The position numbers and the translations under genes are program-made. The notes beneath the pieces are model-generated. The model was not told the DNA's origin. It did not search any database and saw nothing but the letters and a program-made list of their open reading frames with translations. From NCBI GenBank assembly GCA_001275005.1, contig JWZX01003067.1:1-36051 (forward strand): a stretch of DNA of 36,051 bases, given 5' to 3'. The stretch comes from Chrysochromulina tobinii (Eukaryota). Positions 18,742 through 23,284 of this stretch are shown here, piece by piece. How positions within the stretch are numbered: position 1 is the stretch's first letter; each line of letters starts with the position of its first letter.

Positions 18742-21700
18742 TCACATCATCACCTCAAGGTGGTACAGCTCCCCTGACTGTGCGCCGGCAGCAATCCTGG
18801 GCCAACTCACAGCCACACACTGGATTGGACTCGGCGCATAGAATGCGCCGCCCCCGTCCTTCATGCGAATTGTCGCGCCATCGCGCACCGCACCCTCCGC
18901 CTCTTTGCTGAAGGCCATGGCCTCGCCTTGACGCGTTTCAAGCAGGTTGAACGAATCTGAATCCCAGACTTTGATCGTTTTGTCAGTCGATCCGGACACA
19001 ATCTTGGTCCCGTCCGGGGAAAACGCCACCGATCGGATGGTGTCGCTGTGGGCGTTGGTCTTCTCGCTCAACAGCTCCAGTTTGTCTGCCAGGCAAGCCA
19101 AATGGCGTCAGTTTTGGCCAAGGAGGGGCAATTTTGAAGGCAAAAGCGCACCCGAATCCCAGACTTTGATCGTCTGGTCCCACGATCCAGAAACGATCTT
19201 GGTCCCGTCCGGGGAAAACGCCACCGACGAGATCAAGTGGCTGTGGGCATTCGTCTTCTCGCTCAGCAGCTCCAGTTTGTCTGCCAGGCAAGCCAACAGG
19301 CGTCAGTCTTGGCCAAGGAGGGGCGATTTTGAGCTCGTGGCGCACCCGAATCCCAGACTTTGATCGTCTTGTCGTCCGATCCCGACACAATCTTGGTCCC
19401 GTCCGGGGAGAACGCGACAGACCTGATCCAGTCACTGTGGGCATTCGTCTTCTCGCTCAACAGCTCCAGCTTGTCTGCCAGGCAAGCCAACAGGCATGAG
19501 TTTGGGCCAAGGAGGGGCAATTTTGAGGGCAAAAGCGCACCCGAATCCCAGACTTTGATCGTCTTGTCGCGCGATCCCGACACAATCTTGGTTCCATCCG
19601 GGGAAAATGCCACCGACCAGATGGTGTCGCTGTGGGCGTTCGTCTTCTCGCTCAGCAGCCCCAGCGCGTCTGTCAGACAAGCCAACAGGCGTCAGTTTTG
19701 GCCAAGGAGGGGCGATTTTGAGCTCGCGGCGTACCCGAATCCCAGCCTTTGATCGTCTCGGGTTCCAGGGCAAGCGCTTACCTCTAGATGGTTTCACCCG
19801 CTCTTCTTGGCCTGTGATCTTGTTGCGCCACCATGTTTCGACTTCATCCTCCTCGTCTGAGAACTCCGCATAATGTAGTGTCTTGTCGAATGACCCCCAC
19901 TCGGATTCAACATGTGGACGGAAATTGATTGCATCCCAGACTTTGATCGTCTTGTCGTCCGATCCGGACACAATATTGGTCCCGTCCGGAGAAAACGCCA
20001 CCGAGTTGATGTCCCTGCTGTGGGCGTTCGTCTCCTCGCTCAGCAGCTCCAGCTTGCCTGCCAGACAAGCCAGCAGGCGTCAGTTTTGGCCAAGGAGGGC
20101 GATTTTGAGGGCTCCGCGGCGCACCTAAATCCCAGACTTTGATCGTCTTGTCGTACGATCCTGAGACAATCTTCGTGCCATCGGGCGAAAACGCCACCGA
20201 CGAGATGTTGTCGCTGTGCGCGTTCGTCTTCTCGCTCAACAGCCCCAGCGCGTCTGTCAGACAAGCCAACAGGCGTCAGTTTTGGCCGAGGAGGGGCGAT
20301 TTGAGAGATCGCGGCGCACCCGAATCCCAGACTTTGATCGTCCCGTCCTTAAAGCCAGCCACGATGAGCGACTTTGACTGATTAGCGTGCTTGCCACCAT
20401 CCTTGACACCGTCCCATATGGCGACGCTCATGACCTCGCTTGTGCCCTCGATCTCCTCGATCAGCTCCTGGCTCTCGGCGTCGTACACGAAGATGGAGTT
20501 GCCTGAGCCACTGACGATGCGTGTGTAGCCGACCGCCACAGAGCTGACGACACTCTTGTGCGACAATGTGCCGATGCACGCGTCCTTCTCTTGGGATTTG
20601 TTACGCCACTTGAGTGCTCGCGTCGGCTGCTCGGACGATATGTGCGAAGCTGCTTCACGAAAAACCGCACTTGCATCTGGCTGCTGCAGGGCGAGCTGCA
20701 TCACTGCCGCGCCCTTGTCACGCTGCAGCACGTCCATGTACTTTCCCACAAATTGGCGCATCTCGGTTGCGTCTGTCAGGTTCACACCGTCCACACGTCG
20801 CAGCTCGAGGTAGTCCTTAGCCACGCTCGAAAGAAGGCCTCTATCGACTCGTTCACGAAGTAGTGCGAGGTCCGTCGCATACACGTGGGCAGCTTGGGCA
20901 GCGAAGGCACCTTTCGCGCCCTGGCCATCGGCCCGACAGAGGTGCAAAATGCCGTGTCTCAGCCAGCAGTAAGTCGCCGCCACATCGTCCGGCTCACGAC
21001 CTTCGGTTGGTGTCACGGTGCGCCACGCGATGAACCCCTCGGCGAGCATCGCGTGCCCGTCCTTGCGCTGCACCTTGAACTCCGCCGATGGCTCTCTGAT
21101 CGAGCTGCCATCGGCGATCTCGCCCGTCAGCCAGTCGACGATGGTCTTGTGAAAGACATGCAACTTGCCATCGCGCACCGGAAAGAGAAGTGCCGTCGTC
21201 TCAATCACGCGCCTCTGCTTCAAGTCGTCCCATCCGAGGAGCGCCGCCGCCATTGCCCCCGTGATCGGCTCGCGCGCAGCCGCAATCAGCTCAACAAGGG
21301 GCTTCGCCTCGGTCCACGCGGGGTCCACCTGACCTTCGGGAAAGGCGCGCTTGAAGTTGACGGCGTACACCTCGCCCAGGCCGGCCGGGAGCGAGTCGAG
21401 GCTCTCGAAGTGAATCTCTTGGCCTTTCTTGGCCTCGCTCTCGAGGTGCTGGCTGAGCATGTAGGCGTACAAGAAGAGGCCCTCCGCCTTGGCCGAGAGT
21501 GCCTCCACTGCAGCGTCTAATGACGACGTGCTGAGGCGGCCAACGATAAAAGCCTCGAGCTCCCCGGCATCAACCTTTGTGCCCTGGCAGAGAGTGGGCA
21601 GCTCCTCGCGGACCTTCTCGTAATGGACGTGCGCCTCCTTTTTTGCCTCGAGCATGTCTATATGGTTGAGCTGGATCTCGCACACGTACCTCGTGCCATC

Positions 21701-23284
21701 TGAAAGCACGACGCCGGCACACAAGTTGAAGTCGGAGTAGCCCATCGGCGTCGGCGACGCGTACTTATTCTTGAGTGTGAGTACTTCGATGCCCACCCCC
21801 TGGAGCCCCTCGGCAAGCGCGTGTGCCATGCGCGAGCAGCTAGTGAAGCGCAGGGTGAGCCGCGCGAGGTCCTTGAGCTTGTTGGCATGGCCACCGTAGT
21901 CGTTCTTCATCTTTTCAGACACCCGTGGCTCAGACTTGATACCCGGTGAGTCGGCGAACTCGACCCACTCTCTTGCCGTCCCAGGGACTGGATGGAGGAG
22001 CGTTTCCTTCTTTCGGTCCGCCTCCCATTCGTCCGCGATGAGGAACTCGAGCTTTTTTTGCGCCTCGGGCGCCTGCTTCACATGGACGATGTTCAAATCG
22101 TCCGACACTTGCACGAGGTCGGCATTGCGCTTCTCTGGCACTGCGATGAGCTTCTTGTAGCCCTCCTCCAAGTTCACTTTATCGCGCACCTTGGCGTAGA
22201 TGGCCTTGGACATCTCCAAGGGCTTCTGCAGGACTGCAAGCTTACCTTTCATGTCAATGTTGTACGTGCGCTTGACATCAGCCTCAATATCGGCGATGTT
22301 CGCCTCGCCTTTGATGTACCTGCGCGCGATCGTGCGCAGGTACACCTCGACGTCGGCTCTGTTCTTGGCCTCATCGGCGCGAAGCTCTTTGGGTTTGAAG
22401 CTGTTGAGAGCCCGCGTGATCTGGGGCTCCTCACGCGACGTCACGAAGAGCTTGAGCCACTGCGGCAGCCGAGAGAGCTGGCTGGCGATGACAGCAAGCA
22501 GCGGCTTCTGCGACTCCTTGGGCAGCTCGTCGAGCGCGTCGAGGATGATGAGCAGCGGCCTCTCAGGCGCCTGGACCTTCGATAAAAGCAGCGGCGTCTC
22601 GAAGAGCGCCTTGAAGAGCTCCGCTGGGTCGTCCATCGCTTCCCCTGGTACCCCCGTGGCCTCAAGCTTCTCCTTGTAGCCCTGGAGCCGGTGTGCGAGC
22701 ATGGCGGCCAGGCTGCGGAGCAGCGGGCCGGGCGCCGACTGCGCTGGGTTGTCGTGGCGGCAAAAGTGCCAGGCGACGGTACGGTTGATGACACGGTCTA
22801 GGAGCTCAGCCGTGAGCACCGACTTTCCGGTGCCGCCGCCACCCATCAGCCAGAAGAGCTGGGGCGACGCCGGGTCGTTGAGCCACTTGAGGATCTCGGC
22901 GAAGGCCCACTCGCGCGTGCCTTGGAGGTGCGCGCTCTTCTTTTCGTGCCACAGCTCGCGAAAGTCATGAGGCTTCAGATCGAGCGTCGGCGGCACGCTC
23001 AGCTGACCTAGCGTCGGGCTCTCGGATGGAGATGAAGCACCCGGCGTCAGCCCAGATGGAGCTGCCTCCGGCACGACAAGGCCGAGACTCACGAGCTTCA
23101 TCTTTTCTTGTTCGCCCACTTTGACGAGGAACACCGATCGCTCCTGCGCCGATGCATCTTCGTAGGCGGCCTTGATGTCCGCGTCTGGGCTCTCGCCGGT
23201 CAAAGCAGAGGCTCCCGCACCCATGTTTCCCTGCCGTCTGCTTTTGGTATCATGACTTCGTCCATCTTTGGTACCGCTCTTCAT
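18742..23284 (-). CDS. NLR-like NACHT NTPase with inserted RelA/SpoT-like domain and C-terminal WD40 repeats; exons 23284(or 23224)-20320, 20253-20125, 20057-19782, 19669-19541, 19474-19346, 19280-19152, 19085-18742
   Basis: Walker [22 protein letters not shown], Walker [42 protein letters not shown]. Six phase-1 GT-AG introns (66, 67, 112, 66, 65, 66 nt) give one continuous frame through six [31 protein letters not shown] repeats. Confidence 0.9.
18960..20345 (-). repeat. Tandem ~195-bp exon+intron units (129-nt WD40 exon + 65-67-nt intron)
   Basis: TCCCAGACTTTGATCGT and GGCCAAGGAGGGGC(G/A)ATTTTGA recur at about 195-bp spacing. Most introns carry an ACTGAC branch-like motif, and all end in CAG. 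Confidence 0.95.

What the first reader, a model, noticed from the sequence alone, without database searches (positions are those of the whole stretch)
21560..22310. RelA/SpoT-like nucleotidyltransferase inserted inside the NACHT helical region rather than at the N-terminus
Seen: about 250 aa separate DVEVYLRTI from [16 protein letters not shown], which are normally close together in NACHT proteins. The insert (core ~21605-21950) reads [55 protein letters not shown]. This parallels the RelA/SpoT synthetase motif order K-S..K, DxxxxR, KD/N, GY, EIQ, H..Y, with the metal-binding Asp and Glu retained. GYSD replaces the canonical GYQSxH, so the substrate may not be GTP/GDP. Inference: the position could couple catalysis directly to the NTPase conformational switch.
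Basis: partly seen in the sequence, partly recalled or inferred. Interest (0 to 1): 0.9.

Follow-up and report, generated by a model that had tools for sequence, protein, structure and literature searches.

The report
Alarmone-synthetase domain embedded in algal NACHT receptor
A haptophyte alga's NACHT-WD40 receptor-like protein carries a complete Tas1-like RelA/SpoT-type pyrophosphokinase domain spliced into the middle of its NTPase module, which is predicted to be the enzyme the receptor switches on, likely to drain or modify adenine nucleotides during a defence or cell-death response.

Summary
The minus-strand gene at 20320-23224 continues into WD40 exons down to about 18742. It encodes a STAND/NACHT protein in which 272 residues (aa 320-591; window 21512-22327) separate two motifs. 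Those motifs lie 13-30 residues apart in the three insert-free relatives whose two flanks both aligned.

The insert is a genuine RelA/SpoT-homologue (RSH) synthetase domain:
- A family profile hits Tas1/Apk1 at E 6e-13 and YwaC at 2e-4.
- The AlphaFold model has pLDDT 94.
- The 29 top structural matches are all RSH synthetases (Z up to 13.4; Tas1 rmsd 2.1 Å, 28% identity).
- Donor-site Lys/Arg, the catalytic Asp472, the G-loop Tyr516 and Glu536-x-Gln538 are kept in 39-42 of 42 NACHT-embedded homologues, as are Walker A, Walker B and sensor 1.

RNA contigs are spliced at the WD40 introns and run unbroken through the insert. The architecture recurs in haptophytes, pelagophytes and a diatom. The same roughly 270-residue cassette also sits inside a choanoflagellate G-alpha.

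Pfam does not detect the domain, and I found no description of it in print. Enzyme activity, product ((p)ppApp is my guess) and coupling to the NTPase switch are untested inferences. I class it as a new variant of a known kind, since fungal NLRs carry RelA_SpoT at the N-terminus.

The parts
20320..23224 (-). First coding exon of the NACHT-RSH-WD40 gene. It runs from the MGAGAS start (aa 21 of ORF P0001) to the first GT donor. A public cluster member names the product 'wd40 repeat-like protein', 1346 aa.
   Evidence: ORF. It is identical over 969/970 residues to the named cluster member P0193, which sits on a 36051-nt contig. RNA contigs show a GT..AG joint 20253>20320.
23207..23224 (-). N-terminal MGAGAS, a predicted N-myristoylation motif (M-G-x-x-x-S).
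   Evidence: Sequence. Similar N-termini occur in homologues: MGAGASLL in P0046 and MGGGVSS in P0047. The lipidation itself is inferred from the known consensus and was not tested.
22433..22921 (-). NACHT nucleotide-binding domain (Pfam NPHP3_N, aa 122-284). It holds Walker A GGGGTGKS (148-155), Walker B LDALDE (248-253) and sensor 1 TSR (282-284).
   Evidence: Pfam NPHP3_N E 7.3e-28. The motifs are conserved in 36-42 of 42 homologues.
22316..22372 (-). Helix aa 305-323 ([21 protein letters not shown]). It is the last element before the insert.
   Evidence: Secondary structure of the full-length model, H285-303 in 982-residue numbering. It also marks the end of the first BLASTP block against insert-free relatives, at aa 316.
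21512..22327 (-). The 272-residue insert (aa 320-591), a mobile RSH cassette.
22103..22327 (-). N-terminal helical part of the cassette (aa 320-394; three helices).
   Evidence: Model helices 11-22, 29-52 and 57-61. These lie outside the range aligned to most RSH structures. They are conserved together with the core in non-NACHT contexts.
21527..22102 (-). RSH synthetase fold (aa 395-586).
- Donor-site residues K450, R454, K458.
- Catalytic D472 (codon 21869-21871) in KDLARLT.
- N506.
- G-loop G515-Y516-S-D518-F-N520.
- E536 (codon 21677-21679)-I-Q538-L-N540.
- H552 and Y555.
   Evidence: VIA-align model range 76-267 against SAS2, SAS1, RelP and Tas1, Z 11-13.4. HMMER alignments to Tas1 and YwaC. 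Conservation counts.
21041..21511 (-). Rest of the helical lid, with [16 protein letters not shown], plus the winged-helix domain (aa 592-748).
   Evidence: Pfam HTH_TANC1 at 657-748, E 8.9e-4. Model helices and hairpin. Second BLASTP block against insert-free relatives.
20648..20884 (-). Second helical domain (Pfam APAF1_C, aa 801-879).
   Evidence: Pfam E 8.9e-6. The full model's best Foldseek matches are Apaf-1.
18742..20548 (-). WD40 sensor region. The first blades lie in exon 1. After them comes a tandem array of 195-bp units, each one WD40 exon plus a short intron (array 18959-20342, 7.1 copies).
   Evidence: Stop-to-stop frames. Tandem Repeats Finder. GT..AG joints 20253>20320 and 20056>20124, each in 3 of 4 RNA runs. 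WD40 repeats in P0193.

Best explanation
The window encodes a STAND/NACHT-WD40 receptor-like protein of a haptophyte alga with a complete Tas1/Apk1-like RelA/SpoT-homologue (RSH) pyrophosphokinase domain inserted into its NTPase module, and this domain is predicted to be the receptor's catalytic output.

Shown here:
- the insertion itself;
- its RSH fold;
- retention of every catalytic motif together with the NACHT Walker A, Walker B and sensor 1 motifs across 42 embedded homologues;
- its presence in spliced transcripts;
- recurrence of the architecture in haptophytes, pelagophytes and a diatom.

Inferred:
- The C-terminal WD40 repeats (ankyrin or TPR in paralogues) would sense a trigger such as viral infection.
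- Nucleotide exchange and oligomerisation of the NACHT module would then release or assemble the embedded RSH domain.
- The RSH domain would transfer pyrophosphate from ATP to the 3'-OH of an adenine nucleotide, making (p)ppApp as Tas1 does. This would deplete ATP and arrest or kill the cell.

My odds: RSH fold and homology about 0.97. Catalytically active about 0.8. Output enzyme of an immune or cell-death-type receptor about 0.6. Acceptor is an adenine nucleotide about 0.45.
For: Fold and homology:
- phmmer of the insert against the PDB finds only Tas1 (E 2.3e-4).
- The family profile finds Tas1 at 6.4e-13, YwaC/SAS2 at 2e-4 and SaSAS at 0.046.
- The AF2 model has pLDDT 94.1 and pTM 0.89.
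- Foldseek gives 31 hits at E<=1e-3, and every listed row is an RSH synthetase.
- VIA-align rows 1-29 are all RSH. SAS2 scores Z 13.4 and SAS1 13.3. Tas1 scores Z 11.0, rmsd 2.1 Å over 130 residues at 28% identity. Pol-beta-type NTases follow only at Z about 6.
- 7 of 31 scanned relatives hit Pfam RelA_SpoT at E<=1e-3. One of them is above the curated cut-off.

Active site:
- The alignments put D472 on the YwaC DIAGVR Asp, GYSDFN on GYRSLH, and EIQLN on EIQIRT.
- Counts over 42 embedded homologues: K450 41, R454 40, K458 41, D472 42, R475 41, G515 42, Y516 39, E536 41, Q538 41.
- These correspond in motif order to FaRel2's K66, S70, K74, D90, Y128, E145 and Q147 as described in passages of PMC11782079. 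The mapping is my inference.

NACHT integrity:
- Walker A Lys is present in 37 of the 37 rows that cover the site. Walker B D249 and E253 are 42/42. Sensor 1 R284 is 42/42.
- Apaf-1 is the best Foldseek match of the full model.

Insertion.

Expression:
- GT..AG joints at the WD40 introns appear in 3 of 4 RNA runs.
- Contigs bridge both insert borders: 22269-22460 and 21476-21692.
- The annotated model keeps the insert.
- A Proboscia alata transcriptome protein has the same architecture.

Receptor-like family traits:
- Paralogues swap WD40, ankyrin, EF-hand and other domains around a constant NACHT+RSH core.
- The WD40 exons form a near-identical tandem array.

Tas1 makes pApp, ppApp and pppApp and depletes ATP (passages of PMC7229694 and PMC11782079).
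Against: - No enzymatic, toxicity or infection data exist for any member.
- Pfam RelA_SpoT does not hit this protein even at E 10, and only 3 of 36 aligned relatives hit it at E<=0.01. The domain is therefore divergent.
- The arginine that stacks on the donor adenine in FaRel2 (R64) has no obvious counterpart: position 448 is Gly. Tas1 shares this gap.
- tRNA-modifying CapRel also aligns structurally (Z 10.3, but 10% identity), so a tRNA acceptor is not excluded.
- The model's coordinates and PAE were not available to me. I could not see whether the NACHT module occludes the RSH site. The full-length pTM is only 0.60.
- An N-terminal region of about 100 residues with no known fold, and N-terminal EF-hand, nuclease-like or ubiquitin-like domains in paralogues, could be the real effectors.
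- Nothing links the gene to infection. PADLOC gave nothing.
Confidence: 0.62

Rival explanations
1. The embedded RSH domain is active but pyrophosphorylates the 3' CCA end of tRNA, as CapRel, FaRel2 and PhRel2 do. It would shut down translation rather than make (p)ppApp.
For: CapRel structures align at Z 10.0-10.3 and FaRel2 at Z 6.0. CapRel is itself a sensor-fused defence enzyme (passages of PMC11782079). The extra N-terminal helices of the cassette recall the N-terminal helices that FaRel2 uses to hold tRNA.
Against: Sequence similarity points to Tas1: 6.4e-13 and 28% identity, against 9-10% identity for CapRel and no sequence hit for any tRNA-modifying toxSAS. The Tas1-type motif variants KDLAR.T, GYS.xN and EIQ.N are shared.
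Confidence: 0.15
2. The RSH domain makes a signalling nucleotide, (p)ppApp or (p)ppGpp, that acts as a second messenger for downstream proteins or for the plastid. It would not be a suicidal ATP-depleting toxin.
For: RSH enzymes classically make messengers. The cassette is also fused to signalling proteins in other protists: G-alpha, Ras/Roc, EF-hand and an E2 enzyme. Variable N-terminal domains in paralogues could be the executioners.
Against: GYSDFN and EIQLN depart from the GYRSLH and EIQIRT motifs of (p)ppGpp synthetases. No receptor or hydrolase partner was identified. No plastid-targeting signal is visible; the protein starts with a myristoylation-like MGAGAS.
Confidence: 0.13
3. The RSH domain is a non-catalytic regulatory or ligand-binding module. 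It would sense nucleotides or alarmones and tune the NACHT switch, while the output resides elsewhere.
For: It sits next to the NACHT nucleotide lid. SAS1 is allosterically regulated by its own product; this point is from recall and comes from no call.
Against: All catalytic residues, including the Mg-binding Asp and the Glu-x-Gln, are kept in 41-42 of 42 homologues at down to 30% identity. A mere binding module would not need them.
Confidence: 0.07
4. The insert is not part of the mature protein. It would be an in-frame intron, a transposon remnant or an assembly artefact.
For: One RNA contig, in 1 of 4 runs, joins 21187 to 21902. A paralogue's public gene model (P0050) lacks most of the insert.
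Against: That joint has non-canonical ends (AA..TC) and removes NACHT sequence as well. The other contigs cross both borders. The insert is under strong purifying selection across 42 homologues from several algal groups. It is present in a diatom transcriptome protein and in the gene's own annotation.
Confidence: 0.02

Closest known systems
Tas1/Apk1, the type VI secretion (p)ppApp synthetase toxin of Pseudomonas aeruginosa (PDB 6OX6)
   Same: It is the nearest solved relative by sequence (profile E 6.4e-13) and the tightest structural fit (rmsd 2.1 Å, 28% identity). The two share K-x3-R-x3-K, KDLAR.T, GYS.xN and EIQ.N.
   Different: Tas1 is a bacterial secreted toxin with a PAAR delivery domain and a Tis1 immunity protein (passages). 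Here the domain is eukaryotic and embedded in a NACHT NTPase, with no PAAR domain. Its product is unknown.
Fungal NLRs with an N-terminal RelA_SpoT effector domain (Dyrka et al. 2014, PMC4986451; Sordariales survey, bioRxiv 10.1101/2024.11.26.625400)
   Same: Both combine an RSH-type domain with a NACHT NTPase of the NPHP3_N/T-NACHT kind and WD40, ANK or TPR repeats (passages read).
   Different: In fungi the domain is N-terminal and recognised by Pfam PF04607. Here it is inserted about 35 residues after sensor 1, inside the NTPase module, and Pfam does not see it.
Small alarmone synthetases SAS1/RelQ and SAS2/RelP/YwaC
   Same: They give the highest structural Z scores (13.3-13.4). YwaC is a significant profile hit at 2e-4, with the catalytic Asp, the GY loop and E-x-Q aligned.
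   Different: They are stand-alone bacterial (p)ppGpp synthetases with GYRSLH and EIQIRT. The window has GYSDFN and EIQLN.
CapRel(SJ46), a fused sensor-toxSAS phage defence enzyme
   Same: Both place an RSH synthetase under the control of a sensor in the same polypeptide. Structural match Z 10.0-10.3.
   Different: CapRel is controlled by a pseudo-zinc-finger antitoxin domain and modifies tRNA. Here the controller would be a STAND NTPase. Identity is only 9-10%.
Apaf-1 and other STAND NTPases (NBD-HD1-WHD-HD2-WD40)
   Same: Apaf-1 gives the best whole-model Foldseek matches (2.8e-8). The window protein has Pfam APAF1_C and a WD40 sensor.
   Different: Apaf-1 signals through an N-terminal CARD. 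No enzymatic domain interrupts its NTPase module.

Membership tests
RelA/SpoT homologue (RSH) synthetase superfamily | Synthetase fold: a five-stranded mixed sheet flanked by helices, nucleotidyltransferase-like | tested here: met
   Model pLDDT 94.1. Foldseek top hits are all RSH. VIA-align rows 1-29 are all RSH, Z 7.2-13.4.
RelA/SpoT homologue (RSH) synthetase superfamily | Significant sequence similarity to accepted members | tested here: met
   Profile against the PDB: Tas1 6.4e-13, YwaC 2e-4. 7 of 31 relatives hit Pfam RelA_SpoT at E<=1e-3.
RelA/SpoT homologue (RSH) synthetase superfamily | Match of this protein itself to Pfam PF04607 RelA_SpoT | tested here: not met
   No Pfam family at E<=10 for the insert or its core. 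This reflects the limited sensitivity of one model to the Tas1-like branch. It is not evidence against the fold.
RelA/SpoT homologue (RSH) synthetase superfamily | Catalytic residues: the Mg-binding Asp on beta2, Glu-x-Gln on beta5, basic residues for the donor triphosphate, and an aromatic residue in the G-loop | tested here: met
   D472 42/42, E536 41/42, Q538 41/42, K450 41/42, R454 40/42, K458 41/42, Y516 39/42. Aligned to YwaC and Tas1.
RelA/SpoT homologue (RSH) synthetase superfamily | Pyrophosphate transfer from ATP to a 3'-OH acceptor | not testable with these tools
   This needs an enzyme assay.
Tas1/Apk1-like (p)ppApp synthetases | Closer to Tas1 than to (p)ppGpp synthetases, and sharing its motif variants | tested here: met
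   E 6.4e-13 against 2e-4 or weaker for the others. 28% against 13-17% identity in structural alignments. KDLAR.T, GYS.xN and EIQ.N are shared.
Tas1/Apk1-like (p)ppApp synthetases | Product is pApp, ppApp or pppApp | not testable with these tools
   This needs LC-MS or radiolabel assays.
Tas1/Apk1-like (p)ppApp synthetases | Secreted toxin context: a PAAR or other delivery domain, and a cognate immunity protein | tested here: not met
   No PAAR or secretion domain in the protein. It is a eukaryotic nuclear gene among housekeeping genes. It therefore works like Tas1 at most in its chemistry, not as a secreted toxin.
NACHT / STAND NTPase (NLR-like) | P-loop NTPase with Walker A, Walker B (D-[AG]-[LF]-D-E) and sensor 1 Arg | tested here: met
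   Pfam NPHP3_N 7.3e-28. Motif conservation.
NACHT / STAND NTPase (NLR-like) | NBD, helical lid, winged helix and second helical domain, followed by superstructure-forming repeats | tested here: met
   HTH_TANC1, APAF1_C and WD40 hits. Model secondary structure. Apaf-1 and MalT are the best whole-model matches.
NACHT / STAND NTPase (NLR-like) | Role in immunity or cell death | not testable with these tools
   Inferred only, from architecture and paralogue diversity.
Fungal RelA_SpoT-NACHT NLRs | RSH domain N-terminal to the NACHT module | tested here: not met
   The domain lies between aa 319 and 592, downstream of sensor 1.
tRNA-pyrophosphorylating toxSAS (CapRel, FaRel2) | Specific similarity to tRNA-modifying members, and a reduced basic patch at the acceptor site | tested here: inconclusive
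   There is a structural match but only 9-15% identity. The surface charge could not be examined because no coordinates were available.

The most novel reading that the evidence does not exclude
The roughly 270-residue Tas1-like RSH cassette is a portable output module that protists insert into the nucleotide-covering lid of P-loop switches. In algal NACHT receptors it sits after the first lid helix. In a choanoflagellate G-alpha it sits between profile positions 76 and 83, early in the helical domain. In this reading, opening of the lid on nucleotide exchange directly gates a pyrophosphokinase that burns ATP into (p)ppApp. That would be a eukaryotic, receptor-controlled alarmone or ATP-depletion death pathway, and a new way of wiring an effector to an NLR.
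Probability: 0.3. Interest if true: 0.88.

Novelty: new variant of a known kind. Interest (0 to 1): 0.7.

Why it matters
RSH enzymes are regarded as bacterial and plastid stress-signalling enzymes and bacterial toxins. NLR-type receptors are thought to carry their effectors at a terminus.

Here a Tas1-like synthetase is a conserved internal part of the NTPase engine of a receptor family. The family is spread over ecologically dominant marine algae: haptophytes, pelagophytes and a diatom. Their antiviral mechanisms are largely unknown.

If the domain is active, three things follow:
- (p)ppApp-type chemistry or ATP depletion would be added to eukaryotic innate-immunity outputs.
- It would offer a natural test case of how STAND conformational change can gate an embedded enzyme.
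- It would give candidate markers and genes for algal bloom-virus studies.

It also shows that a family of at least 871 representative proteins is essentially invisible to Pfam RelA_SpoT.

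Tried and rejected
Searches that gave nothing useful:
- Pfam on the insert alone gave no family at E<=10.
- NCBIfam gave only a weak MalT hit, 0.09.
- PADLOC gave nothing for the insert and one E 0.01 hit for the whole protein.
- phmmer of the whole protein against the PDB gave only WD40 proteins and Tas1, with no NACHT structure. The NACHT assignment therefore rests on Pfam and on the model.
- No whole genome is held for the window, so paralogue counts and a search for a (p)ppApp hydrolase could not be done.
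With the single protein, viral contigs gave no relative. I did not scan genome contigs or metagenome contigs.
- Earlier findings of this scan: none.
- The original Tas1 paper could not be read: the id I tried (PMC6883173, taken from recall) is not held. Statements about Tas1 come from passages of PMC11782079, PMC7229694 and PMC12691689.
- ESM Atlas neighbours are eukaryote 'hypothetical protein' clusters at score 0.95 and one Actinomycetota cluster in which 34% of members carry RelA_SpoT at 0.94. I treat these as leads only.

RNA lay:
- Two bins had little or no cover: 19748-19911, and 23192-23355, which spans the start codon and the sequence just upstream of it. I draw nothing from them.
- The joint 21187>21902 was seen in one contig of one run, with non-canonical ends. 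I judged it a chimera or a paralogue.
- Many joints between WD40 units cannot be told from repeat collapse.

Tree of 112 RSH cores (quick ML, midpoint root):
- Only the 112 of 248 RSH-positive stored proteins with at least 150 of 192 core positions were used.
- NACHT and non-NACHT labels need at least 10 changes.
- Many 'other' rows are short fragments, so I make no claim about a single origin.

Steps not attempted:
- No coordinates or PAE of either model were available, so no statement is made about contacts between the RSH domain and the NBD.

Full report
**What is there.** The finding lies in a 1002-codon minus-strand ORF, 20276-23284. A public cluster member is identical over 969 of 970 aligned residues and sits on a contig of exactly the window's length. 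Its source names it 'wd40 repeat-like protein' of the haptophyte Chrysochromulina tobinii, 1346 aa. It starts at MGAGAS, which is aa 21 of the ORF.

The ORF ends inside a WD40 repeat. Downstream, each roughly 195-bp unit of a 7.1-copy tandem array (18959-20342) holds one WD40 exon and a short intron. Neighbouring ORFs encode 2-oxoglutarate dehydrogenase E1, a myosin, FtsZ, a transglutaminase-like protein and trehalose-phosphate synthase/phosphatase. This is ordinary nuclear DNA.

**Domain order.** Pfam finds four domains:
- NPHP3_N (a NACHT-type NTPase core) at aa 122-284, E 7.3e-28
- HTH_TANC1 at 657-748
- APAF1_C at 801-879
- WD40 from about 968

A full-length AlphaFold model (pLDDT 82.9, pTM 0.60) has Apaf-1 as its best Foldseek match (2.8e-8). 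The protein is thus a STAND NTPase with the order NBD, helical lid, winged helix, second helical domain, WD40.

**The observation.** All quoted motifs are at the stated places. DVEVYLRTI ends at aa 319 and [16 protein letters not shown] begins at aa 592, so 272 residues lie between them.

I searched with the NTPase core alone and compared the 16 newly retrieved proteins.
- Seven have the RSH domain. Their core identity to the query is 38-59%.
- One is cut off before the site.
- Eight lack it. Their core identity is at most 35%.
- In the three insert-free proteins whose two flanks both align (P0257, P0258, P0259), the flanks are 13, 17 and 30 residues apart.

The region is therefore an insertion. 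It lies after the helix that follows the last NBD strand and before the helices carrying the G-L-F-L-Y-A motif. The assignment of those helices to the lid, HD1, is my reading of STAND architecture.

**What the insert is.** Pfam gives nothing for it, even at E 10. phmmer against all PDB sequences gives a single hit, the (p)ppApp-synthesising type VI toxin Tas1 (6OX6), at E 2.3e-4.

An exhaustive HMMER search of 1.84 billion representatives finds 871 relatives at E<=1e-3, 199 at <=1e-10 and 52 at <=1e-30. A profile of 36 of them hits these PDB entries:
- Tas1 at 6.4e-13
- B. subtilis YwaC/SAS2 at 2e-4
- the exported Streptomyces synthetase at 0.046
- two further GTP pyrophosphokinases, weakly

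Seven of 31 scanned relatives reach Pfam RelA_SpoT at E<=1e-3, one of them above the curated cut-off. Only 3 of the 36 aligned members do so at E<=0.01.

The AlphaFold model of the insert is confident (pLDDT 94.1, pTM 0.89). Foldseek gives 31 PDB hits at E<=1e-3, and every listed row is an RSH synthetase. In the VIA-align second look, rows 1-29 are all RSH:
- SAS2 at Z 13.4 and SAS1 at Z 13.3
- Tas1 at Z 11.0, rmsd 2.1 Å over 130 residues, 28% identity
- CapRel at Z 10.3
- Rel, RelA and SpoT at Z 7-11.6

Pol-beta-type transferases follow only at Z about 6. The RSH fold spans insert residues about 76-267 (aa 395-586). The first 75 residues are three extra helices that travel with the core in other proteins.

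**Active site.** The HMMER alignments place the residues as follows:
- D472 of KDLARLT on the Asp of YwaC's DIAGVR
- GYSDFN on GYRSLH
- EIQLN on EIQIRT

Tas1 reads KDLARNT, GYSGVN and EIQVN. In motif order these match the donor-site K66, S70 and K74, the catalytic D90, the G-loop Y128, and E145/Q147 that passages of PMC11782079 describe for FaRel2. That mapping is my inference.

Across 42 NACHT-embedded homologues of 30-94% identity, the counts are:
- K450 41, R454 40, K458 41
- D472 42, R475 41, N506 42
- G515 42, Y516 39, D518 41, N520 41
- E536 41, Q538 41, H552 40, Y555 41

In the same alignment the Walker A Lys is present in all 37 rows that cover it. Walker B D249 and E253 are 42/42 and sensor 1 R284 is 42/42. 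Both engines look functional.

**Is it in the mRNA?** The public annotation keeps it. Fourteen RNA-library runs hold at least 61% of the gene's sampled words. I laid four of them.
- Contigs show GT..AG joints at two WD40 introns, 20253>20320 and 20056>20124, each in 3 of 4 runs. Spliced RNA is therefore present.
- Contigs bridge both borders of the insert: 22269-22460 and 21476-21692.
- One contig in one run joins 21187 to 21902 with non-canonical ends. I set it aside.
- The contigs are short, and the runs may all belong to one campaign.

A transcriptome-derived protein of the diatom Proboscia alata has the same NBD-RSH-lid order.

**Distribution.** Of 49 proteins sharing the insert in the word-indexed search, 38 carry a precomputed NPHP3_N annotation (my count of the table). 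Of 112 stored proteins with a near-complete RSH core:
- 62 have the NBD upstream and the lid and winged helix downstream
- 16 have only the downstream part and 5 only the upstream part, so they are probably fragments
- 29 have neither

Named sources are Chrysochromulina tobinii and C. parva, Prymnesium parvum and P. polylepis, Pelagomonas calceolata, Pelagophyceae sp. CCMP2097, and Proboscia alata.

Around the constant NACHT+RSH core, the paralogues vary:
- C-terminal WD40 or ankyrin repeats
- N-terminal EF-hands
- an Exo_endo_phos domain
- 'ubiquitin-like' by a source's naming

Outside NACHT proteins, the cassette is joined to Ras/Roc, an E2 enzyme, EF-hands, BspA-type LRRs and F5/8C. It also occurs in a 3127-residue protein with an eCIS_core domain and a calpain domain.

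In a G-alpha of the choanoflagellate Didymoeca costata the layout is most striking:
- residues 16-77 match G-alpha profile positions 14-76
- residues 348-622 match positions 83-330
- the RSH cassette fills the space between them

The same module is therefore inserted inside a second, unrelated P-loop switch. By my recollection of G-alpha topology this is early in the helical, nucleotide-covering domain. I did not test that placement.

**How it most likely works.** What is shown is a NACHT receptor-like protein with an intact NTPase and an intact, embedded, Tas1-like RSH active site, and it is expressed. The rest is inferred.
- The repeats would sense a trigger.
- The NACHT module would exchange nucleotide and oligomerise.
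- This would free or assemble the RSH domain.
- The RSH domain would pyrophosphorylate adenine nucleotides at the expense of ATP.

Tas1 does this. It makes pApp, ppApp and pppApp, depletes ATP and blocks purine synthesis (passages). The result would be growth arrest or death of the cell.

The family's modular diversity and its near-identical tandem WD40 exons resemble fungal NLRs. There, RelA_SpoT is a recognised N-terminal effector (passages of PMC4986451 and of bioRxiv 10.1101/2024.11.26.625400).

The rivals are tRNA pyrophosphorylation, a messenger rather than a toxin, a non-catalytic regulatory role, and an artefact. They are weighed in their own section.

**Known or new?** Five full-text searches found no description of an RSH domain inside a NACHT module or of Tas1-like domains in algae. 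Targeted reading of six papers found none either. These were the fungal NLR surveys, the bacterial NACHT paper, the 2026 STAND survey, the 2020 conflict-systems paper and the 2025 Apk1/Tas1 homologue survey.

The Apk1/Tas1 survey's jackhmmer search was restricted to bacteria. Its six supplementary files hold none of the algal names I searched for. I read only passages of these papers, not whole texts. Subscription literature is not covered.

The thing is a new variant of a known kind: an NLR with an RSH effector, but with a different RSH branch, a different host group and, above all, a different topology.

**Limits.** There is no enzymology. Model coordinates and PAE were not available, so nothing can be said about occlusion of the active site. 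The whole genome was not available. The tree of RSH cores is a quick, midpoint-rooted search with many fragments. It does not settle how often the cassette moved.

Noticed in passing
P0119 (Didymoeca costata G-alpha, 634 aa), residues about 78-347: The same roughly 270-residue RSH cassette is inserted inside a G-protein alpha subunit. It lies between G-alpha profile positions 76 and 83. The protein starts with an MGCCCSS lipidation-type N-terminus, and the P-loop comes before the insert and DTGGQ after it.
   Followed up: partly
window 18959-20342 (minus-strand gene): There is a tandem array of 195-bp units (7.1 copies, 73% matches; a 389-bp period shows 88%). Each unit is one WD40 exon plus a short intron. 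RNA contigs show many different joints between units, for example 19279>20319 and 19474>20320. These could be exon skipping among near-identical repeats or assembly collapse.
   Followed up: partly
window 22970-23100 (aa about 62-105 of the ORF): In 3 of 4 RNA runs, one contig replaces these 131 bases with 7 other letters. The ends are non-canonical and the length change is not a multiple of three. It lies in the low-confidence N-terminal linker. It may be an allele, a paralogue or an isoform.
   Followed up: no
P0050 (second C. tobinii protein, 620 aa, on a 39987-nt contig): This is a paralogue with a near-identical N-terminus. Its public gene model lacks most of the RSH insert and parts of the NACHT module, probably because introns were mis-predicted. 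The insert may therefore be under-annotated in public gene sets.
   Followed up: no
P0104 (594 aa), P0143 (3127 aa), P0141, P0162, P0178, P0061, P0142: Relatives of the cassette occur in other architectures:
- two tandem copies (P0104)
- a giant protein with eCIS_core and calpain domains and two E-M-Q-L-H motifs (P0143)
- fusions to Ras/Roc, an E2 ubiquitin-conjugating domain, EF-hands, BspA-type LRRs and an F5/8 type C domain
   Followed up: partly
window 18001-23000 against its flanks: The receptor gene has a lower G+C fraction (0.57-0.62) than most of the surrounding genes (0.64-0.74).
   Followed up: no
window 23394-26417 (+), 26934-32417 (+), 32970-34622 (+), 16498-18405 (-), 5049-7937 (-), 13468-16432 (-): Neighbouring long ORFs match 2-oxoglutarate dehydrogenase E1, a myosin with a WW domain, FtsZ, a transglutaminase/Rad4-like protein, trehalose-phosphate synthase/phosphatase and NHL-repeat proteins. 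None has an obvious link to the receptor.
   Followed up: partly
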